Assembly: GCF_047606305.1 (NCBI RefSeq)
Contig: NZ_JASGER010000051.1
Coordinates: 6,787-70,786, forward strand
DNA from: Gordonia sp. (in: high G+C Gram-positive bacteria)
GTDB lineage: Bacteria; Actinomycetota; Actinomycetes; Mycobacteriales; Mycobacteriaceae
Direction of reading: 5' to 3'
Length of the DNA: 64,000 bases
The position numbers and the translations under genes are program-made. The notes beneath the pieces were generated by a model. The model was not told where the DNA came from. It worked only from the letters and a program-made list of their open reading frames with translations, and did no database searches. Below, in pieces: positions 11,989 to 50,284 of this stretch (its first letter is position 1; every line of letters starts with the position of its first letter).

Positions 11989-13431
11989 TCAAGCGGTGAC
12001 TTCGGAGCGGTCACCGCTCCACAGGGTGTGGAAGCTGCCCTCGGCGTCGATCCGGCGGTAGGTGTGGGCGCCGAAGTAGTCGCGCAGCCCCTGGGTGAGG
12101 GCGGCGGGCAGGCGCTCGGCGCGCAGCGCGTCGTAGTACGACAGCGACGAGCCGAAGGCCGGCACCGGGATGCCCATCGAGGCGGCGGTTGCGACGACGC
12201 GGCGCCAGGAGTCGATCCCGGACTCGACGGCGTTGCGGAAGTACGGCGCGAGCAGCAGGCTCGGCAGCTCCGGGTTCTCGGCGTAGGCCTCGCGGATGCG
12301 GTTGAGGAACTGTGCCCGGATGATGCAGCCGCCGCGCCAGATCGTGGCGAGGGCGCCCGGGTCCACGTTCCAGCCGTACTCCTTGCTGCCGGCCGCGATC
12401 TGGTCGAAACCCTGCGCGTAGGCGACGACCTTCGATGCGTACAGCGCGGCCTTGATGTCCTCGATGAAGGCGGCTGCGTCGGTGGGGGCGGCGGCGAGGT
12501 CGCCGGCGGCCAGACCGGCGGCGGCGTCACGCTGGGCCCGCGAGCTCGAGAGAGCGCGCGCGAAGACGGCCTCGGCGATACCTGTCACCGGAATACCAAG
12601 GTCGAGCGCCGATTTCACAGTCCAGCGGCCGGTGCCCTTCTGGCCCGCCTCGTCGACGATCACGTCGACCAGCGGCTTGCCGGTCTTCGCGTCGACCTGG
12701 TCGAGGACCTCGGCGGTGATCTCGATCAGATAGCTGGCGAGTTCGGTGGAGTTCCAGTCCTTGAACACCTTGCCGATGTCGGCGACCGGCATGTCCAGGG
12801 CCTTGCGCATGAGGTCGTAGGCCTCGCCGATGAGCTGCATGTCGGCGTACTCGATGCCGTTGTGGACCATCTTGACGAAGTGACCGCTGCCGTCCGGGCC
12901 GATGTGGGTGCAGCAGGGCTCGCCGTCGACCTGTGCGGCGACCTTCTCCAGCATGGGGCCGACGGCCTTGTAGGAGTCGACCGGCCCGCCGGGCATGATG
13001 GCCGGCCCGAGCAGCGCGCCCTCTTCGCCGCCGGAGATGCCGGCGCCGATGAAGAGGAGTCCACGCTCGGCGAGGCTCTTCTCGCGGCGGATGGTATCGG
13101 TGTACAGCGCGTTGCCGCCGTCGATGATGATGTCGCCCGGCTCGAAGACCGCGGCCAACTCCTCGATCACCGAGTCGGTGGCGTCACCGGCCTGAACCAT
13201 GATCAGCGCCCGGCGCGGGCGCTCGAGCGCGGCGGCGAATTCGGCCATCGTCTCGGTGCGCACGAAGTCGCCGTCACCGCCGTGATCGGCGATCAGCGCG
13301 TCGGTCTTGGCGATCGAGCGGTTGTGCAGCGCGACGGTGTAGCCGTTGCGGGCGAAGTTGCGGGCGATGTTGGAGCCCATCACGGCGAGGCCGGTGACCC
13401 CGATCTGGGCAGAGGCGGAAGACGCAGTCAT
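11989..13431 (-). CDS. gndA: 6-phosphogluconate dehydrogenase, decarboxylating
   Basis: GLAVMGSN, GISGGEEGA, VKMVHNGIEY, QKGTGRW, WRGGCIIRA, RDYFGAHTY. Confidence 0.97.
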   Translation of the reverse strand: MTASSASAQIGVTGLAVMGSNIARNFARNGYTVALHNRSIAKTDALIADHGGDGDFVRTETMAEFAAALERPRRALIMVQAGDATDSVIEELAAVFEPGDIIIDGGNALYTDTIRREKSLAERGLLFIGAGISGGEEGALLGPAIMPGGPVDSYKAVGPMLEKVAAQVDGEPCCTHIGPDGSGHFVKMVHNGIEYADMQLIGEAYDLMRKALDMPVADIGKVFKDWNSTELASYLIEITAEVLDQVDAKTGKPLVDVIVDEAGQKGTGRWTVKSALDLGIPVTGIAEAVFARALSSSRAQRDAAAGLAAGDLAAAPTDAAAFIEDIKAALYASKVVAYAQGFDQIAAGSKEYGWNVDPGALATIWRGGCIIRAQFLNRIREAYAENPELPSLLLAPYFRNAVESGIDSWRRVVATAASMGIPVPAFGSSLSYYDALRAERLPAALTQGLRDYFGAHTYRRIDAEGSFHTLWSGDRSEVTA

Positions 13432-13440
13432 GCAGTCAGC

Positions 13441-14391
13441 TTAACCGCCGAAGAAACGGGACAGCTCGACGAGCCACGGGATCACCACGGCAAGGGTCGG
13501 AACGACGAGGATGGCGGCCGCCCCGGCATAGGCGGCGGCGGCGATCGTGGTCGAGTTGGGCGATGCGAGCCGGTTGATCCGGGCGACCGTCGTCGAGCCG
13601 CCGGCGGCGAGGGCGCCACGGGGCGCCGCGGAGTCGGAAACGGCGACGAGGGCGTGGGCCAGCGTCGACGGGCTGGTGCTGCGAACGGCCTGGTCGTCGG
13701 CGAGCGCCTCGGCGAGCAGCTCGACCGAGCCCAGGGCCGAGGAACTGCGCACGAAGCGCGGGAAGGCCGCCTGCAGGGCGATGAAGGCCTCCAGCACGAG
13801 GTCGTGCCGCGCACGCAGGTGGGCGCGCTCGTGGGCCAGGACCGCGCGCAATTCGGCATCGGACAGTCGCGCAACGGCGCCGTCGGTGACGATGACGCGC
13901 TGGCGTCGACCCGGCAGACAGTAGGCGAGGGGCTGATCGAGGGCCAGGCGTCGGACGTACCGCGCCCGCAGCGGGTGCCGGTCGCCGACGACGGGGTCGT
14001 CGAGGGAGGCGATCAGGTCGACCAGCTGGCGATGGGCGGCGCGACGGGACCGGGTGCGGAAGGCGACCCGGATCGTGGTGACCACCAGCCGTGCCCCGAC
14101 GAGGAGTGTGGCGGCGAAGGCGGCGACGCTGAACAACCAGAGGGGCAGGCCGAGGCGGTCGATCTGGTCGGCGATCCGTGCGCTCGGGGTGCCGGCGGTG
14201 CCCGGGCGCAGGAGGTTGGCGGCGATCGCCAGGCCGGCGCTGAAGGCGGAGAGGACGGCCGCGAGTGCGATCGCCTGCCAGAGGGTCATGGCGGCGCGGG
14301 GGGCGCGCATCGGCCACTGTGCGCTCGACAGCCAGGCCGGCACCGGGCCGACGAGCAGCAGGCACAGGAGGCCGAACGCGACGGCGGTCAC
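13441..14391 (-). CDS. blaR: M56-family zinc metalloprotease (BlaR-like, Rv1845c)
   Basis: HERAH (HExxH), several TM helices, coupled to blaI. Confidence 0.88.
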   Translation of the reverse strand: MTAVAFGLLCLLLVGPVPAWLSSAQWPMRAPRAAMTLWQAIALAAVLSAFSAGLAIAANLLRPGTAGTPSARIADQIDRLGLPLWLFSVAAFAATLLVGARLVVTTIRVAFRTRSRRAAHRQLVDLIASLDDPVVGDRHPLRARYVRRLALDQPLAYCLPGRRQRVIVTDGAVARLSDAELRAVLAHERAHLRARHDLVLEAFIALQAAFPRFVRSSSALGSVELLAEALADDQAVRSTSPSTLAHALVAVSDSAAPRGALAAGGSTTVARINRLASPNSTTIAAAAYAGAAAILVVPTLAVVIPWLVELSRFFGG

Positions 14392-14804
14392 GTCGGATCG
14401 CTGCGCTTCTCGTCGCGGGGGCCGGACTGGGCGGCGTCGAGGTCGTCGAGGGCGGCCCGCAGAGCAGCGGCCTCGTCGGCACTCACCTGCCCGACGAAGG
14501 AGACGAGGGCGGCCTCGCGCGATCCGGGGGCGTCCGCCGAATCGAGCACGTCGACCATCAGGCTGGCGACCAGATCCTCGCGGTGGTGCGCGGCCTGGTA
14601 CTTGTGGGCGCGGTCGTCGCGGATCTGGGTGACCAGCCCCTTCTTGGCGAGGCGCTGCAGGACGGTCATCACCGTCGTGTAGGCGAGGTTGCGCGAGCGG
14701 TTCAGCGACTCGTGCACCTGGCGCACGGTCTGCGGCACGCTCGAGTCCCAGAGCGTGTCCATGACCGCCCGTTCGAGATCGCCCAACGCATTCACCTTTT
14801 TCAT
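14388..14804 (-). CDS. blaI: BlaI/MecI/CopY-family repressor
   Basis: LGDLERAVMDTLW, LAYTTVMTVLQRLAKKGLV; start at MKKVN. Confidence 0.93.
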   Translation of the reverse strand: MKKVNALGDLERAVMDTLWDSSVPQTVRQVHESLNRSRNLAYTTVMTVLQRLAKKGLVTQIRDDRAHKYQAAHHREDLVASLMVDVLDSADAPGSREAALVSFVGQVSADEAAALRAALDDLDAAQSGPRDEKRSDPT

Positions 14805-14910
14805 CTTACCGATTCGTGCCCGCGTGCTGGTGAGGGGAGTGATACGTGCGTCGATGGTGGTGGTCACTGGGTCTCCTACCGGTTGATCGAGACTTCTTCG
14901 CCCCAAGGAT

Positions 14911-14939
14911 TTGACAACTAGGTAAGGCTAGCCTACATT
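14911..14939 (+). promoter_or_regulatory. Sigma-A-type promoter
   Basis: TTGACA (14911-14916), 17-bp spacer, TACATT (14934-14939). Confidence 0.85.
14918..14936. promoter_or_regulatory. IdeR/DtxR iron box
   Basis: CTAGGTAAGGCTAGCCTAC, 16/19 match to TWAGGTWAGSCTWACCTWA; overlaps promoter spacer and -10. Confidence 0.85.
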
Positions 14940-14946
14940 ACTAATC

Positions 14947-15040
14947 ACGCGGATCGCGCGAGTGTCCTGAGGGCTGCAGAGACCCCCGATCCTCGGCACG
15001 GCAGGCCCCACGTTGTAGGAGAACGTGGGGCCTGCCGCTG
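14947..15040 (+). ncRNA. Iron-repressed small RNA, probable MrsI (ncRv11846) homologue
   Basis: Promoter plus IdeR box upstream, strong hairpin at 3' end, no credible ORF, same blaI-thioesterase intergenic position as mycobacterial MrsI; ends estimated. Confidence 0.68.
14999..15037 (+). terminator. Intrinsic terminator hairpin
   Basis: CGGCAGGCCCCACGTT-GTAGGAG-AACGTGGGGCCTGCCG, perfect 16-bp stem. Confidence 0.8.
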
Positions 15041-15079
15041 TATCCGGGGCAGGAATCGGCGTGGGGTTAACCTGGCGGT

Positions 15080-15499
15080 ATGAGCGATCACACCGTAGAA
15101 CCCGATCCGTCCCGTCCCAAGGGGTTGGACGCCGCCCTCGGAATGACGATCTCGGAGGCGGGCCCGGACGGCGTCGTGGCCCAGATCCCGATCACCGGGA
15201 CCCATCACCAACCGTTCGGCATCGTTCACGGCGGTGTCTATTGCGCGATGGCCGAGAGCGTGGCGAGCATCTCCGGATTCCTGTGGCTCGAGCACACCGG
15301 GATCGGCGGGACCGCCGTCGGGGTCAACAACAGCACGGACTTCATCAAGTCCGTGTCCGAGGGGACGATCGTGGCCCGATCGGTGCCGGTGCACCGCGGC
15401 AAGCGCCAGCAGCTCTGGCAGGTCGACATGACGCTGCCCGACGGCACGTTGCTCGCCCAGGGGCGCGTGCGACTGCAGAACGTGCCGCTGCCGTCCTGA
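15080..15499 (+). CDS. PaaI-family hotdog thioesterase (Rv1847-like)
   Basis: HQPFGIVHGGVYCAMAES, HRGKRQQLWQV; leaderless TAACCT-N6-ATG. Confidence 0.92.
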   Translation: MSDHTVEPDPSRPKGLDAALGMTISEAGPDGVVAQIPITGTHHQPFGIVHGGVYCAMAESVASISGFLWLEHTGIGGTAVGVNNSTDFIKSVSEGTIVARSVPVHRGKRQQLWQVDMTLPDGTLLAQGRVRLQNVPLPS

Positions 15500-15517
15500 C
15501 GGGCGGTCGGGAGGTGG

Positions 15518-16948
15518 CTAGGCGCCCTTCTTGGCGGCCTTGTGGCGTCGTTCGCGGGCCTTCTTCTCCTGCGCCTCTTCGGCCTCGCGGCGTTCGAGCT
15601 CGGAGAGGGCGCCCATCGCGGTGCGCGCGTAGACCTGCTGCTCGGTGACCGCCAGCTGGGTGCGACCGCGCGTGGTGAACGCGAAGAACCAATTGATGAA
15701 GGTGTTCAACCGGTTGCGGAAGCCGACGAGGTACACCAGGTGCAACGCCAGCCAACCCAGCCACGCGAAGTAGCCCTCGGTCTCGAACTTCTTCTTGGTG
15801 AAGGGGATCGGCACCTGCATCACCGCGGCGTATCGCGAGATCGTGGCCATCGAGCCCTTGTCGAAGTAGGAGAACGGCTTGCGCTGCTCGGGCGTCTGGC
15901 CGCGCAGTTCGGCCTTGATCGCATCGGCGGCGTAGCGACCGCCCTGGATCGCGCCCTGGGCCACGCCGGGTACGCCGTCGACGGCCATCATGTCGCCGAC
16001 GACGAAGACGTTCGGGTTGCCCGGCACGGTCAGATCCGCACCGACCTTCACGCGTCCGGCGCGGTCGAGTTCGACGCCGGTCTGATCGGCGAGCACCTTG
16101 CCCAGGGCACTGGCCTGCACGCCGGCGGACCACACCTTGCACTGCGCGTTGATGCGCCGCACGGTGCCGTCGGAGTCCTTGACCTCCAGGCCGTCGTAAT
16201 CGAGGTTCGTGACCATCGAGTTGAGCTGCACCTCGACGCCGAGCTTCTCCAGTCGCTGCTGCGCCTTTGCGCTGAGTTTCGGGCCGTAGGGGGCCAGGAC
16301 GGCCGGGGCCGCGTCCAGCAGGATCACTCGCGCCTGCGTCGGGTCGATGTGTCGGAACGACCCCTTCAGGGTGCGGTCGGCCATCTCTGCGATCTGCCCG
16401 GCCATTTCGACGCCGGTCGCGCCGGCGCCGACGACGACGAAGGTCAGCAGTTTCTCGCGCTCGGCCGGATCGTCGGAGAGCTCGGCCTGCTCGAAGGCGC
16501 CGAGGATGCGGCCGCGCAACTCGAGGGCGTGGTCGATGGTCTTCATGCCGGGCGCGTACTCGGCGAACTGGTCGTTGCCGAAGTAGGACTGGTCGGCGCC
16601 GGCGGCGATGATCAGGCTGTCGTACGGGGTGATGGTGACCCGTTCGAGCAACCGGGAGGTCACCGTCTGCGCCTTGACGTCGATCTCGAACACGTCGCCG
16701 AGCAGGACGGTCGCGTTCTCCTGGTCGCGCAGGATGATGCGCGTCGCCGGGGCGATCTCGCCCTCGGACACGATGCCGGTCGCGACCTGGTACAGCATCG
16801 GCTGGAACAGGTGGTGGGTGGTCCGCGCGATGAGGGTGACGTCGACGTCGGCCCGCTTCAGGCGCTGTGCGGCAAAGAGCCCGCCGAACCCGGATCCGAT
16901 GATGACGACGCGGTGGCGGGGGCTGGCTGAGGTGTCACTCGTGGTCAC
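15518..16948 (-). CDS. ndh: Type II NADH dehydrogenase
   Basis: IIGSGFGG, HHLFQPMLYQVATG, VVGAGATGVEMAG, FVVGD, YFDKGSMATI. Confidence 0.96.
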   Translation of the reverse strand: MTTSDTSASPRHRVVIIGSGFGGLFAAQRLKRADVDVTLIARTTHHLFQPMLYQVATGIVSEGEIAPATRIILRDQENATVLLGDVFEIDVKAQTVTSRLLERVTITPYDSLIIAAGADQSYFGNDQFAEYAPGMKTIDHALELRGRILGAFEQAELSDDPAEREKLLTFVVVGAGATGVEMAGQIAEMADRTLKGSFRHIDPTQARVILLDAAPAVLAPYGPKLSAKAQQRLEKLGVEVQLNSMVTNLDYDGLEVKDSDGTVRRINAQCKVWSAGVQASALGKVLADQTGVELDRAGRVKVGADLTVPGNPNVFVVGDMMAVDGVPGVAQGAIQGGRYAADAIKAELRGQTPEQRKPFSYFDKGSMATISRYAAVMQVPIPFTKKKFETEGYFAWLGWLALHLVYLVGFRNRLNTFINWFFAFTTRGRTQLAVTEQQVYARTAMGALSELERREAEEAQEKKARERRHKAAKKGA

Positions 16949-18028: not shown

Positions 18029-21000
18029 ATGCTCACCGTTCACCGCGCCGAGCGCGCCGACGCCCTCGTCGAGGTGTTGGCCGCGACGATGGCGTCGCCG
18101 CTCGCCGACCCGATGGCCGCCGAGGTCGTCGCCGTCGCGGCACACGGGGTCGAGCGGTGGCTCGCCCAGCAGCTCGCCCAGACCCTCGGTGCCGGGCCCG
18201 TCGGCGACGGGGTCGCCGCCAACATCGACTTCCTGGGGGCCACCGAGTTGGTGACACGGGTGGTCGATCCGTTCGCGCTGCCGCGGGGGGTGCGGGCACA
18301 GCTGTGGCAGCCGGAGCAGCTGCTGTGGCCGGTGTTGGCCGCACTCGAGGAGTGCATCGACGATCCTGCCCTGACCATGCTCGCGCGACACATCGACGCC
18401 GCCGGCGAGGACGCGTGGCGCGGGCGCAAACTCGCCACCGCCACGACGATCGCCCGGATGTTCGCCTCCTACGGCCGCCAGCGCCCGCAGATGGTGGCCG
18501 CCTGGGCCCGCGGGGAGGACGTCAGCGGCGCCGTCGTCGGCGGTGGTTCCCAACCCCTCGACCTCGACCAACTCTGGCAACCGCTGCTCTGGCGACGGGT
18601 GCGCGAGCAGCTCGCCGGCCCGCACCCGGCCGAGATCCTCGACGAGGTGGTCGCCGGGATCGTCGACGACCCGGGGCGGCTCGATCTGCCCGAGCGGCTG
18701 ACGATCTTCGGCCCGACGCGGATCCCGCAGATGCTGCGCGAGCTGCTCGACGGCTTGGCCCGTCACCGCGAGATCGGGCTCTACCTGGCCCATCCGAGCC
18801 CCCGCCTGTGGGAGAGGGTCGCCGCGGCTGCGACGCCGGTCGGACCCCACCCGCGCGTGCTGCGCTCCCCGCCGGCGATCGCCAACCCGTTGCTGGCGAG
18901 TCTGTCCCGGGACGTGCAGGAACTGCAGGAATCGTTGGGCGCGACGATCGGCGCCGATCAGTACCACCCCGCTCCCGCTGCGCCGGAGCGGACACTGCTG
19001 GCCGCGGTCCAGACCGCGCTGCGCGACGACGGGGACGCTCCGGTCAAGGGGTTGGCAGCGGACACGTCGCTGGAGCTGCACGCCTGCCACGGTCGGGAAC
19101 GACAGGTCGAGGTGCTGCGGGAGCGGTTGCTGCACCTGTTCGCCGACGATCCGACCCTGCAGCCGCGCGACGTGCTGATCATGTGTCCCGACATCGAGGA
19201 GTTCGCGCCGCTGATCACCGGGGCCTTCGGCCGCGAGGGAGGCGATCATCCCGCGGCCGGGCTGCGGGTGCGCCTTGCCGACCGCGGACTGCTGGCGACC
19301 AACGACGTGCTGGAGGTCGTGCTGCGGATCATCGCGCTCGGCGTCGGACGCGTGACGGTCAGCGAACTGCTCGACCTCGCCGCGCTCGAGCCGGTCCGCC
19401 GACGGTTCGGCTTCACCGACGACGACCTCGAGAACCTCGGCAGCTGGGCGGTGCGCGCCAACATCCGCTGGGGCGTGGACGCCGTGCAGCGCACCCGCTA
19501 CGAGATGGCGGGCTTCCCGCAGGGCACCGCGGAGGCCGGATTGGACCGGCTGCTGCTCTCGGTCGCGGCCGACGAGGCGGACGGGCGCTGGCTCGGCACC
19601 GCGCTGCCACTCGGCGGGATCGACTCCAGCGACACCGAGGTGGTCGGGCGCTTCGCCGAGTACGTCGAGCGGCTGCGCGGAGTCCTGGACGAGTTCGGCC
19701 GCCCGCGCCCCGCGCGGGGATGGGCCGACGTGCTGACCGGTGTCGTCGACCGGCTCACCCAGGTCGACCGCGATGCGGAATGGGAGCGGGCGCAGGCGAT
19801 CCGCCTCGTCCGCGAGGCACTGACCGACGACCTCGCCCTCACCCCCTCGGACGTCCGCGACCTCGTCGAGGACCTCGTCGCTGCGACGCCGACGCGGTCC
19901 AACTTCTGCACCGGCGAGCTCACCGTGTGCTCGATGGTCCCGATGCGGTCGGTGCCGCACCGGGCGATCGTCCTGCTCGGCATGGACGGGGAGGCGTTCC
20001 CGCGCACCCAATCGGTCGACGGCGACGACATCCTGGCCGTCGAACCACTCGTCGGCGAGCGCTCGCCACGGGACGAAGACCGGCAGGCCTTCCTCGACGC
20101 CATCACGGCGGCGCGCGAGCACCTGATCGTCTGCTACACCGGCGCCGACCCGATCACCGGCGCGCCGGTGCCGCCGTCGGTGGTGGTCAGCGAGCTACTG
20201 GACGCGGTGGGCACGTTGGCCGGCCCCGCCGTCGCAGCGGAGGTCGTACGGGCCCATCCGCTGCACGCGTTCGACGAACAGAACTTCCACCGGCCCGCGC
20301 CGTTCTCCTTCGACCGGTCGCTGCTACCCGGTGCCCGGGCCCTCGCGGAGTCGACCGCCAGCCGACGCCCCGGGGCGCGGTGGCCCACCATGGCCGGTGA
20401 CCTGCCGCCGGTTTCGGGCGGCGACATCGACCTCGCCGAACTCACGGCGTTCATCGTGAACCCGGCTGACGGATTCCTCCGGCAGCGTCTGGGGGTGAGT
20501 GTGCCGCGCACCGACGAGGGCGCCCCGGACCAGTTGTCGGTCGACCTGGGGCCGCTGGAGCGGTGGGGGGCGGGTGATCGGCTGTTGTCGGCCCTGCTGG
20601 AGGGCGCCGATCCCGCCGACGCGCGCGCGGCCGAGTTCCGTCGCGGCGCCCTGCCGCCGTTCCAGCTGGGGCTGGACGCCCTCGCGCCGATATCGGCGAA
20701 GGCGCAGGCCATCGCCGAGCGGGCCCGGGCGGCGCGCCGGGGCGAGGCACGGACCGTCGACGTCCGCGTCGAGCTGCCGGACGGCCGACGCGTCTACGGG
20801 ACGGTGCCCGACGTCTACGACGACGGCCCGGTCGCGGTCACCTATTCGAACCTGAAGGGAAAGCAGCGGCTGGAGACCTGGGTGGCGCTGCTCGCACTCA
20901 CCGCCGGTTCGGACGCCGAGGTGCGCGGCGCATGCGTCATCGGCAGCCAGGGGCAGGGCACGGCGCTGCGGCGCTATTCCACGGTTGCCGACGCCGCGGC

Positions 21001-48473: not shown

Positions 48474-49109
48474 CTACCGCGCCCGTGCCGGGTCGAGGCT
48501 CAGCAGGGCGACGATCGCGTCGATCAGCCCCTGTCGTGCGTCGTCCAGATTGCCGTAGGTGCCCAGCATCCGCTCGGAGGTGAGGCCGCGCATGGCCGCC
48601 GGGATCAGTGCCGCCATCTGACGGATACGGGCCGGGTCGACGCCGAGGTCGGCGAAGGCACGTTCGCACGCCGCATCCCACCCGGGCTTCCACGACGCGA
48701 ATTCGGCCGCGGTGAGCGGGTATTCGCGCTCCAACTCGTCGACATCGCGGGGGAGTGCGGCGCGCAGCGTCTCGATGGCCAGTGACTCCGGCGTCCGCAG
48801 ACCGATCAGCATGTTGTCGACAAGGCCGACCACACGATCACGGAGGGTCTCACCGGGGCGGGCGGCGGCGGGCAAATCGCCGCGCAGTTCGGCGGTGTGG
48901 CGCAGTACCGCCGCCCACAGGCCGTCGATATCGCCGAATTGGTACTTGATGGCGCCCCACGTGACACCGATGTCCCGTGCGATGCGGTTTCCGGAGACGG
49001 CCGTCGGGTCTCCCGTCGCGAGGGAGGTGATGGCGGCGGCGATCATGTTCTCGCGGGTGGCGATCCCACGCTTGTTGGCGCGCCGCCTCGGTGCCGTCGT
49101 CTCGGTCAT
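48474..49109 (-). CDS. TetR-family regulator
   Basis: IARDIGVTWGAIKYQFGD HTH; TACGAT-N6-ATG; divergent from Rieske gene. Confidence 0.9.
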   Translation of the reverse strand: MTETTAPRRRANKRGIATRENMIAAAITSLATGDPTAVSGNRIARDIGVTWGAIKYQFGDIDGLWAAVLRHTAELRGDLPAAARPGETLRDRVVGLVDNMLIGLRTPESLAIETLRAALPRDVDELEREYPLTAAEFASWKPGWDAACERAFADLGVDPARIRQMAALIPAAMRGLTSERMLGTYGNLDDARQGLIDAIVALLSLDPARAR

Positions 49110-49168
49110 GCAGACATCGTAAGGAGGAAACCACCCATTTTCATAGAGGGTTCTTGTATTCTTCGGGA

Positions 49169-50284
49169 ATGGCCCGCACTCCCTTGTCGATGGAACCGAC
49201 CGGTTGGTTCCAGGTGGCCTGGTCACCGGAGATCACGGTCGGTCAGGTGCACACGATGAAGTACTTCAACCGTGAGATGGTCGCCTGGCGTTCGGCATCG
49301 GGCAAGGTGTCCGTCTTCGACGCCTACTGCGAGCACCTCGGTGCGCACCTGGGACACGGCGGGCACGTCGAGGGGGAGAACCTGGTCTGCCCGTTCCACG
49401 GGTGGGAGTGGAACGCCCAGGGGCGCAACGTCTGCATCCCCTATGAGAAGCATCCGAACAAGGGGCGCCGCATCCGCAGCTATCCGACACTCGAGCGGAA
49501 CGAGGGGGTCTGGATCTGGTTCGACGCCGATGGCCGGGAACCGTATTTCGACGTGCCGGACGTGTTCGCCGACTTCGGCGACGACAAGACCGCCGCCGAC
49601 TACTACCCGCCCATCCCCGCTGCCACTCTCTTCCGGCCCGGGTTGGAGATCCACCCGCAGTACATCATGGAGAACGGCGTCGATTTCGCCCACTTCAAGT
49701 TCGTGCACGGCACGCCCTTCATGCCGGAGTTCACCCGCCACGACTTCGCTGGGCCGGTGTCCTACGTGGACTTCACGATCGCCTTCGAAGAGGGGGCGAC
49801 ACTCGACGCCGCGACCAGCGGCGTGGAGTCGATCAACGCCGGACTGGGCTGTTCGGTGACCAAGAGCTGGGGCATGCTCGACAACCGCACCATGCCCGCG
49901 GTGACGCCGGTCGACGACCACACCTCCGATGTGCGGTTCACGGTGTGGATCGGGCGCAAGGAGGGCGAGGACGGGCCGGAGTTCGACGGTGTGATGACCG
50001 ACTACGGCGAGACGATGGCCGGCTTCGTGATCGAACAGTTCGCCAACGACATCGAGATCTGGGCGCATCAGCGCTACTCCGACCCGCCTGCGCTGTCGAA
50101 GAAGGAGTTCAAGGGCTTCAAGGCGCTGCGCGAATGGGCCGTCCAGTTCTATCCCGACGGCGGTCCGACCGGCGTCGACCCCGACCACCCCGGCAGCGGC
50201 GCGATCCTGCCCGCCACCGAGGACGGCGAATACGTGCGCATCAAACGATCCGAGCTCGAGCGACTCCGCGCCGCGGCGCGCTGA
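49169..50284 (+). CDS. Rieske non-heme iron oxygenase alpha subunit (KshA-like fold)
   Basis: CEH...CPFH Rieske ligands; ENGVDFAHFKFVH and DIEIW mononuclear Fe ligands; TATTCT-N6-ATG. Confidence 0.9.
   Translation: MARTPLSMEPTGWFQVAWSPEITVGQVHTMKYFNREMVAWRSASGKVSVFDAYCEHLGAHLGHGGHVEGENLVCPFHGWEWNAQGRNVCIPYEKHPNKGRRIRSYPTLERNEGVWIWFDADGREPYFDVPDVFADFGDDKTAADYYPPIPAATLFRPGLEIHPQYIMENGVDFAHFKFVHGTPFMPEFTRHDFAGPVSYVDFTIAFEEGATLDAATSGVESINAGLGCSVTKSWGMLDNRTMPAVTPVDDHTSDVRFTVWIGRKEGEDGPEFDGVMTDYGETMAGFVIEQFANDIEIWAHQRYSDPPALSKKEFKGFKALREWAVQFYPDGGPTGVDPDHPGSGAILPATEDGEYVRIKRSELERLRAAAR

What the first reader, a model, noticed from the sequence alone, without database searches (positions are those of the whole stretch)
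14911..15040. IdeR-controlled small RNA (MrsI-like) hidden between blaI and the thioesterase
Seen: TTGACA-N17-TACATT, a 16/19 IdeR box across the spacer and -10, about 50 nt of structured non-coding sequence, and a perfect 16-bp hairpin. The downstream gene has its own leaderless -10, so this promoter does not need to serve it. Known: mycobacterial MrsI (ncRv11846) lies between Rv1846c and Rv1847, is IdeR-repressed and spares iron by repressing targets such as bfrA. Inference: an iron-sparing sRNA exists in this non-Mycobacterium lineage and may have a different target set. The Rieske gene in this window is one iron-using candidate.
Basis: partly seen in the sequence, partly recalled or inferred. 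Interest (0 to 1): 0.68.

Follow-up and report, generated by a model that had tools for sequence, protein, structure and literature searches.

The report
MrsI iron-sparing sRNA ortholog in Gordonia

Summary
Window 14911-15044 (+) carries:
- a near-consensus promoter, TTGACA-N17-TACATT;
- a 16/19 IdeR box over the spacer and -10;
- a ~95-nt RNA with a 5' hairpin whose 7-nt apical loop is AGGGCUG;
- a perfect 16-bp terminator hairpin.

GGGCUG is the published seed of mycobacterial MrsI (ncRv11846). The locus is syntenic with M. tuberculosis: gnd-blaR-blaI | sRNA | Rv1847-like thioesterase.

The element is present in all 36 Gordonia genomes searched. A model built from it hits 223 of 301 genomes (23 of 34 genera) of the family. 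A 25-nt core is letter-identical in named Gordonia, Williamsia, Rhodococcus, Mycolicibacterium, Mycobacteroides and Mycobacterium. The stems covary (15 pairs with double changes).

The genome encodes an IdeR ortholog. It holds 10 boxes at 16/19 or better against 0.37 expected, several of them next to iron-uptake genes.

On targets, this genome has no bacterioferritin (bfrA). The katG 5' region carries a perfect seed complement at -26, as do 14 of 29 Gordonia katG loci. The Rieske gene has none.

Gerrick et al. 2018 already reported conservation across Mycobacteriaceae and Nocardiaceae, so this is a new member of a known kind and of low interest.

The parts
14911..14916 (+). -35 hexamer TTGACA of the sRNA promoter
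   Evidence: TTGACA in 29 of 30 Gordonia loci and TTGACT in one. Sequence conservation across the genus begins at the -35.
14918..14936 (+). IdeR box CTAGGTAAGGCTAGCCTAC (16/19 to the degenerate consensus), overlapping the spacer and the -10
   Evidence: 10 sites at 16/19 or better against 0.37 expected. The GGTAAGGCTAGCCTAC part is nearly invariant in 30 Gordonia. An analogous box, TTAGG..AGCCTTGCCTAT, lies at the same place in named mycobacteria.
14934..14939 (+). -10 hexamer TACATT
   Evidence: Kept in 28 of 30 Gordonia loci; TACGTT in two.
14947..15044 (+). Predicted MrsI-like sRNA, about 95 nt. The 5' end is inferred from the -10 (TSS about 14946-14949) and the 3' end from the terminator. 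Neither end is mapped.
   Evidence: Fold -56 kcal/mol, z = -4.3. The covariance model scores 109.7 bits here and 61-112 bits across the family.
14948..14995 (+). 5' hairpin, the functional domain
   Evidence: Pair 10:45 switches C-G to U-A in 10 of 30 sequences and pair 11:44 in one. 99.3% of cells are paired.
14970..14976 (+). 7-nt apical loop AGGGCUG holding the seed GGGCUG (14971-14976)
   Evidence: Invariant in all 30 Gordonia and in the 18 family-level hits aligned. The published MrsI seed is GGGCUG in an accessible loop (Gerrick 2018).
14999..15037 (+). Terminator hairpin, 16 bp with a 7-nt loop, followed by CUGUAU
   Evidence: -35.2 kcal/mol. 13 of its 15 alignment pairs show double (compensatory) changes across Gordonia. 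The G-U pairs fit the + strand only.
15068..15073 (+). TAACCT, a likely -10 for a leaderless thioesterase mRNA
   Evidence: It lies 6 nt upstream of the ATG at 15080. TA(A/G)CCT-N6-ATG is kept in the close relatives L002-L005. This is an inference with no TSS data.
15080..15499 (+). 4HBT/hotdog thioesterase (Rv1847-like), downstream neighbour
   Evidence: Pfam PF03061, E = 1.7e-13. An ortholog lies downstream of the core in every named locus that has enough flank.
14388..14804 (-). blaI (penicillinase repressor family), divergent upstream neighbour. A GTG at 14867 is an alternative start.
   Evidence: Pfam PF03965, E = 1.9e-27. It is followed by a blaR-like M48/M56 protease (13441-14391) and gnd (11989-13431).

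Best explanation
Window 14911-15044 (+) is the Gordonia ortholog of the mycobacterial iron-sparing small RNA MrsI (ncRv11846).

Proposed mechanism:
1. With enough iron, Fe-loaded IdeR (encoded on contig C16 of this genome) binds the box that overlaps the spacer and -10 of a strong TTGACA/TACATT promoter and blocks transcription.
2. When iron is scarce, IdeR leaves. A ~95-nt RNA is made and ends at the 16-bp hairpin.
3. The RNA presents the seed GGGCUG in the 7-nt apical loop of its 5' hairpin. The seed pairs with CAGCCC motifs just upstream of the ribosome-binding sites of mRNAs for iron-using proteins and lowers their expression.
4. In this genome the best candidate target is katG. Its seed match lies 26 nt upstream of the ATG, inside the furA-katG junction.

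Shown here: the sequence anatomy, synteny, homology to mycobacterial loci, stem covariation, presence of IdeR, a genome-wide excess of IdeR boxes, and the katG seed site.

Inferred only: transcription, transcript ends, iron and IdeR control, and target repression.
For: 1. Synteny with M. tuberculosis Rv1844c-Rv1847: gnd, blaR-like, blaI on the minus strand, then the element, then a 4HBT thioesterase on the plus strand. Gerrick 2018 places MrsI about 100 bp upstream of Rv1847.
2. The apical loop is AGGGCUG. The published seed is GGGCUG, and it sits in a 7-nt apical loop.
3. The 25-mer GTCCTGAGGGCTGCAGAGACCCCCG occurs exactly in at least 120 genome records. These include named Gordonia, Williamsia, Rhodococcus ruber, Mycolicibacterium, Mycobacteroides chelonae, Mycolicibacillus and Mycobacterium. 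In every locus with enough flank it lies upstream of the thioesterase ortholog. The flanking proteins are only 62-68% (BlaI) and 44-56% (thioesterase) identical in the mycobacterial-type loci.
4. All 36 Gordonia genomes searched have the element, and conservation starts at the -35.
5. Structure: 96.7% of cells are paired, 15 pairs show double changes, 0 of 500 shuffles reach this, and the signal collapses when partners are slid.
6. Covariance model R1 hits 223 of 301 family genomes in 23 of 34 genera. It is nearly always single copy. Outside the family nothing scores above 36 bits.
7. An IdeR ortholog is present: NF053665 at 341.8 bits against a cut-off of 290, and E = 7e-103 to M. tuberculosis IdeR, PDB 1fx7.
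8. Ten boxes at 16/19 or better against 0.37 expected. Others lie next to a siderophore-interacting protein, an AMP-binding enzyme, an ABC exporter-type transporter and an FTR1 iron permease.
9. CAGCCC lies 26 nt upstream of the katG ATG here. It is within 80 nt of the start in 14 of 29 Gordonia katG loci, 11 of them at -22 to -34, against about 1 expected. This matches the MrsI-katG regulation reported for mycobacteria.
Against:
- No Rfam family exists for MrsI, so there is no curated model to score against.
- I could not fetch the H37Rv or mc2 155 MrsI sequences by name. Homology to experimentally studied MrsI rests on other named mycobacterial species plus the published seed and locus description.
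- The IdeR box has 3-4 mismatches and binding was not tested.
- The archetypal target bfrA is absent from this genome.
- The katG statistic counts related genomes, which are not independent events.
- The U-tract after the terminator is weak (CUGUAU), so some read-through into the thioesterase gene cannot be excluded.
Confidence: 0.9

Rival explanations
1. The element is an IdeR-controlled 5' leader or attenuator of the thioesterase mRNA, not an independent sRNA. The hairpin would be a conditional terminator that sets how much transcription reaches 15080.
For: It is on the same strand as the thioesterase gene and only 42 nt upstream of it. It always lies upstream of the thioesterase ortholog. 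The U-tract after the hairpin is weak.
Against: - The hairpin is very stable (-35.2 kcal/mol) and no alternative antiterminator pairing is conserved.
- The spacer between hairpin and thioesterase start is unconserved. The core-to-start distance ranges from about 100 to over 550 nt across genera.
- A conserved TANNNT-N6-ATG gives the thioesterase its own leaderless promoter in this clade.
- In M. tuberculosis Rv1847 has its own TSS and the RNA is a discrete ~100-nt Northern band (Gerrick 2018).
- The most conserved part is a loop that acts in trans in mycobacteria.
Confidence: 0.06
2. The conserved block is mainly a protein-binding control region for divergent blaI transcription (IdeR and/or BlaI operators), and the downstream hairpins are incidental.
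For: The box lies about 50-115 nt from the two possible blaI starts, so the divergent promoters may overlap.
Against: - Conservation extends about 100 nt beyond the promoter into sequence that covaries as RNA stems, with G-U pairs fitting the + strand only.
- In Mycolicibacterium and Mycobacteroides blaI is about 1 kb away, yet the element stays next to the thioesterase gene.
Confidence: 0.02
3. The transcript encodes a small protein rather than acting as a regulatory RNA.
For: A GTG-initiated open frame (15025-15648) starts inside the terminator.
Against: - That frame overlaps the thioesterase gene out of frame and starts in the 3' half of a covarying stem.
- No ATG or other usable start lies in 14947-15024. 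The GTG at 14963 runs into TGA after two codons.
- The substitution pattern is stem-compensatory, not codon-like.
Confidence: 0.01

Closest known systems
MrsI / ncRv11846 of Mycobacterium tuberculosis and M. smegmatis (Gerrick et al. 2018, PMC6016810; bioRxiv 10.64898/2025.12.17.694866)
   Same: - The locus lies between blaI and the Rv1847-type thioesterase, on the thioesterase strand.
- An IdeR box sits at the promoter.
- It has a 5' hairpin with a 7-nt apical loop carrying the seed GGGCUG, then an intrinsic terminator.
- A 25-nt core is identical to that of named mycobacteria.
- A seed complement is present in the katG 5' region.
   Different: - The 5' single-stranded leader is about 10-20 nt shorter than in the aligned mycobacterial loci, giving about 95 nt in total.
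- The promoter has a full TTGACA -35, against TTGTTA or TTGCTA in mycobacteria.
- blaI is directly adjacent, as in M. tuberculosis, but about 1 kb away in Mycolicibacterium and Mycobacteroides.
- This genome has no bfrA, the validated direct target.
- Induction by iron, oxidative or membrane stress is untested.
Iron-sparing sRNAs of other phyla: RyhB (enterobacteria), PrrF (Pseudomonas), FsrA (Bacillus), IsrR (Staphylococcus)
   Same: The logic is the same. An iron-loaded repressor (Fur there, IdeR/DtxR-type here) shuts off a small RNA. That RNA, once made, pairs near ribosome-binding sites of mRNAs for iron-using proteins.
   Different: There is no sequence or structural homology. The repressor family differs. 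These actinobacteria have no known Hfq or ProQ. The seed is a single 6-nt loop.
Rfam F6 TB sRNA (RF01791)
   Same: It is the best Rfam match, and only over the terminator hairpin 14999-15037 (22.8 bits).
   Different: The score is far below the gathering score of 46. The match covers a generic G+C-rich hairpin only, so this is not a member.

Membership tests
MrsI (ncRv11846) sRNA | Encoded between the blaI ortholog (Rv1846c) and the thioesterase ortholog (Rv1847), upstream of the thioesterase gene and on its strand | tested here: met
   Pfam assignments of the neighbours. tblastn of both neighbours in 120 named loci that carry the core.
MrsI (ncRv11846) sRNA | 6-nt seed GGGCUG exposed in the 7-nt apical loop of the 5' hairpin | tested here: met
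   The loop at 14970-14976 is AGGGCUG in both the single-sequence and consensus folds. It is invariant in the 30 Gordonia and 18 family-level sequences aligned. The seed sequence comes and the loop description.
MrsI (ncRv11846) sRNA | Sequence homology to mycobacterial MrsI, especially the ~30 nt before the terminator | tested here: met
   The exact 25-mer is shared with named Mycolicibacterium, Mycobacteroides, Mycolicibacillus and Mycobacterium. Model R1 scores 61-84 bits in the genus that contains Mycolicibacterium houstonense. H37Rv and mc2 155 themselves were not compared.
MrsI (ncRv11846) sRNA | About 100 nt, highly structured, ending in an intrinsic terminator | tested here: met
   The predicted RNA is about 95 nt. 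z = -4.3. The terminator stem has 13 covarying pairs. The ends are not mapped.
MrsI (ncRv11846) sRNA | IdeR binding site at the transcription start | tested here: met
   A 16/19 box overlaps the spacer and -10. It is conserved across Gordonia and lies at the same place in mycobacterial loci. Binding itself was not tested.
MrsI (ncRv11846) sRNA | A discrete small transcript induced by iron starvation | not testable with these tools
MrsI (ncRv11846) sRNA | Direct repression of bfrA through the seed | tested here: not met
   No bacterioferritin gene in this 99%-complete genome: TIGR00754 best score 22 bits against a cut-off of 125.55. The two ferritin genes have no CAGCCC near their starts. Only 1 of 12 Gordonia bfrA leaders has a perfect seed complement. 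This concerns the target repertoire and does not bear on the RNA's identity.
MrsI (ncRv11846) sRNA | Seed complement in the katG 5' region (reported for 86 of 96 mycobacterial species) | tested here: met
   CAGCCC at -26 of the katG ATG. Present in 14 of 29 Gordonia katG loci.
IdeR regulon | The genome has an IdeR ortholog, and boxes are enriched next to iron genes | tested here: met
   IdeR ortholog. Box excess: 10 sites against 0.37 expected. Neighbours include a SIP siderophore-interacting protein, an AMP-binding enzyme, an ABC transporter and FTR1.
Rfam F6 (RF01791) | Score at or above the gathering threshold over the whole model | tested here: not met
   22.8 bits against 46, over the hairpin only.

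The most novel reading that the evidence does not exclude
The oldest and most widely kept job of MrsI may be to lower katG (a haem catalase-peroxidase) when iron is scarce, by pairing at the furA-katG junction. bfrA control would then be a later addition in some lineages.

- All Gordonia searched keep the RNA with an invariant seed, although nearly half, including this small-genome clade, have no bfrA.
- Those that do have bfrA mostly lack a perfect seed site in its leader (1 of 12).
- A seed site about 22-34 nt upstream of katG recurs in diverged Gordonia leaders.
Probability: 0.3. Interest if true: 0.4.

Novelty: new member of a known kind. Interest (0 to 1): 0.22.

Why it matters
This is mainly an annotation point. 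MrsI has no Rfam model, so it goes unannotated outside Mycobacterium. This locus and model R1 show it is a single-copy, family-wide element: 23 of 34 genera sampled, absent from the small-genome Corynebacterium-like genera.

For Gordonia it predicts an IdeR-dependent post-transcriptional layer of iron sparing. It also gives a natural experiment on sRNA target turnover, because the seed is invariant while bfrA is missing or unmatched and katG often keeps a site. It does not change how MrsI is understood to work.

Tried and rejected
- Rfam at a permissive E-value: no family. The F6 and miRNA hits cover only the G+C-rich hairpin.
- Supplement of Gerrick 2018, wanted for the M. tuberculosis and M. 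smegmatis sequences: not held. No tool returned those genomes by name.
- Second copy in the genome: the 29-bit hit at C16:23776-23855 is an ordinary terminator after a gene and has no seed loop.
- Rieske oxygenase (start about 49170) as a target: no CAGCCC in the upstream region read, 48950-49170.
- Ferritin genes as targets: none has a seed site near its start. The one CAGCCC, at -206 of the C35 ferritin, is too far away.
- Genome-wide search for 9 nt or more of perfect complementarity to the loop region: 93 sites, no enrichment at gene starts and no obvious iron genes. This was uninformative, as Gerrick 2018 also found for prediction tools.
- Small-ORF reading: rejected (see rivals).
- Literature search for MrsI in Gordonia: only papers on sRNA B11 mention both words. 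A broader second search was badly targeted.

Full report
**What is there**

Between a divergent blaI gene (14388-14804, minus strand; Pfam Penicillinase_R, E = 1.9e-27) and a 4HBT hotdog thioesterase gene (15080-15499, plus strand) lies a 275-nt spacer. Upstream of blaI come a BlaR-like M48/M56 protease and gnd. Downstream of the thioesterase lies an NDH-2 gene. This is the gene order of M. tuberculosis Rv1844c-Rv1847.

- TTGACA (14911-14916), a 17-nt spacer and TACATT (14934-14939). This is the only promoter-like site in 14600-15300, where shuffles give 0.1.
- CTAGGTAAGGCTAGCCTAC (14918-14936). It matches 16/19 to the degenerate IdeR consensus and 15/19 to the strict one.
- A hairpin region at 14948-14995.
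- A perfect 16-bp hairpin at 14999-15037, -35.2 kcal/mol.

The 98-nt stretch 14947-15044 folds at -56 kcal/mol, z = -4.3.

**Is it more than chance?**

The base composition of this 3.2-Mb, 70% G+C genome predicts 0.37 IdeR boxes at 16/19 or better. Ten are found.

Other boxes lie next to these genes:
- a siderophore-interacting protein;
- an AMP-binding enzyme;
- an ABC exporter-type transporter;
- an FTR1 iron permease.

The genome encodes a true IdeR ortholog. It scores 341.8 bits on NCBIfam NF053665 (cut-off 290) and E = 7e-103 to M. tuberculosis IdeR, PDB 1fx7, with a nearly identical N-terminal DNA-binding region. A second DtxR-family protein is MntR-like.

**Conservation and structure**

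A 200-nt query found the element in all 36 genomes of the same genus, and the alignments begin at the -35. The nearest named relative is G. araii NBRC 100433, with BlaI 92% and the thioesterase 81% identical.

In 30 aligned loci, GGTAAGGCTAGCCTACATT is nearly invariant and GTCCTGAGGGCTGCAGAGACCCCC is invariant.

The consensus fold has two parts:
- A 5' hairpin with a 7-nt apical loop, AGGGCUG. Its base switches GGAUCG/CGAUCC to GGACCG/CGGUCC.
- A terminator stem in which 13 of 15 pairs show double changes.

Overall 96.7% of cells are paired, 15 pairs have compensatory changes, 0 of 500 shuffles reach this, and the signal collapses when partners are slid. The many G-U pairs fit the plus strand only.

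**Identity**

Rfam has no matching family. Gerrick et al. 2018 describe ncRv11846/MrsI as follows:
- about 100 nt long;
- starting about 100 bp upstream of Rv1847, which has its own TSS;
- carrying an IdeR site at the start and an intrinsic terminator;
- holding its seed in the 7-nt apical loop of the 5' hairpin;

A 2025 preprint gives the seed as GGGCUG and finds mrsI in 99 of 115 mycobacterial species. The window's loop is AGGGCUG.

They include named Gordonia, Williamsia, Rhodococcus ruber, Mycolicibacterium, Mycobacteroides chelonae, Mycolicibacillus trivialis and Mycobacterium. In every locus with enough flank the core lies upstream of the thioesterase ortholog. blaI is directly adjacent in Gordonia and Williamsia and about 1 kb away in Mycolicibacterium and Mycobacteroides.

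The RNA core is letter-identical, while BlaI and the thioesterase are only 62-68% and 44-56% identical in the mycobacterial-type loci.

Aligned with named mycobacteria, the Gordonia RNA has a 5' leader about 10-20 nt shorter and a full TTGACA -35. The IdeR box sits at the same place.

A covariance model built from the Gordonia alignment (R1) hits 223 of 301 genomes and 23 of 34 genera of the family, nearly always once per genome. It hits nothing above 36 bits in other families of the order. The genera without a hit include those with 1.6-2.8-Mb genomes.

**How it most likely works**

By homology, Fe-IdeR sits on the box that overlaps the -10 and represses the promoter. Under iron limitation the ~95-nt RNA is made and stops at the hairpin. 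Its loop seed then pairs with CAGCCC near ribosome-binding sites of mRNAs for iron-using proteins.

The thioesterase gene probably has its own leaderless promoter, TAACCT six nt before the ATG, which is conserved in the close relatives. The spacer after the terminator is unconserved and variable in length. Both points favour an independent sRNA over a leader.

**Targets**

- bfrA: this genome has no bacterioferritin. bfr scores over the family cut-off in 22 of 41 Gordonia genomes and is absent from this small-genome clade. Where it is present, only 1 of 12 leaders has a perfect seed complement.
- Ferritins: the two ferritin genes here have no site near their starts.
- katG: CAGCCC lies 26 nt upstream of the katG ATG, inside the end of furA and just before the Shine-Dalgarno sequence. 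A site within 80 nt of the start occurs in 14 of 29 Gordonia katG loci, 11 of them at -22 to -34, against about 1 expected. These genomes are related, so the statistic overstates independence, but the surrounding leaders are diverged. The result matches the MrsI-katG regulation reported for mycobacteria.
- Genome-wide: a search for longer complementarity was uninformative.

**Verdict**

The family and its spread beyond Mycobacterium are already published. This is therefore an unannotated new member of a known kind, with a modest lead on target turnover (katG kept, bfrA lost). Interest is low.

Noticed in passing
window 14805-14880 (minus strand): blaI may start at GTG 14867 rather than ATG 14804. 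AGGAGA lies 4 nt upstream of the GTG, and the 21-codon extension and its Shine-Dalgarno sequence are kept in the four closest relatives. That start would leave only about 45 nt between blaI and the sRNA -35, so the two divergent promoters may overlap.
   Followed up: partly
window 15068-15080: The thioesterase gene looks leaderless. TAACCT lies 6 nt before the ATG with no Shine-Dalgarno sequence, and TA(A/G)CCT-N6-ATG is conserved in close relatives.
   Followed up: partly
own genome contig C67, about 2040-2200 (locus L183), upstream of a ferritin gene: Five tandem ~21-nt repeats (CTGGGCACGGTCGnCGnAAnA) lie directly upstream of a BfrB-like ferritin gene. They are followed by two copies of the inverted motif GAGTGTGCCCAG/GAGTGTGCCCGT. 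This looks like an array of regulator binding sites.
   Followed up: no
own genome (whole); Gordonia genomes G001-G036 and G236-G239: Bacterioferritin (TIGR00754) is absent from this genome and from 18-19 of the 40 other Gordonia sampled, including all close small-genome relatives. Every Gordonia searched keeps the MrsI-like RNA.
   Followed up: yes
own genome: C77:56670, C47:36278, C67:10194, C72:2248, C14:43101, C21:46535, C107:8827, C112:18057, C124:45994: These are the other nine IdeR boxes at 16/19 or better, a draft IdeR regulon. Some lie next to genes with no Pfam hit or with beta-propeller repeats, or next to an adenosine deaminase. Those could be chance sites or new iron-regulated genes.
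   Followed up: partly
Gordonia genomes G030:C82, G035:C3, G003:C66, G008:C6, G002:C4: In several Gordonia the best-matching katG lies about 40 kb from the mrsI locus on the same contig. In the window's genome they are on different contigs (C62 and C51).
   Followed up: no
L164 (CAWHCK010000056.1): A MAG labelled 'uncultured Alphaproteobacteria bacterium' carries the mycobacterial-type blaI, MrsI-core and thioesterase locus. The contig is probably mis-binned.
   Followed up: no
own genome C35, about 18560-18720, upstream of the second ferritin gene: GGTTAGCGTAGCCAAGG and TTAGCGCAGGCAATAC resemble weak, tandem IdeR-like boxes upstream of a ferritin gene. IdeR is known to activate bfrA and bfrB in M. 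tuberculosis (from memory, not checked here).
   Followed up: no
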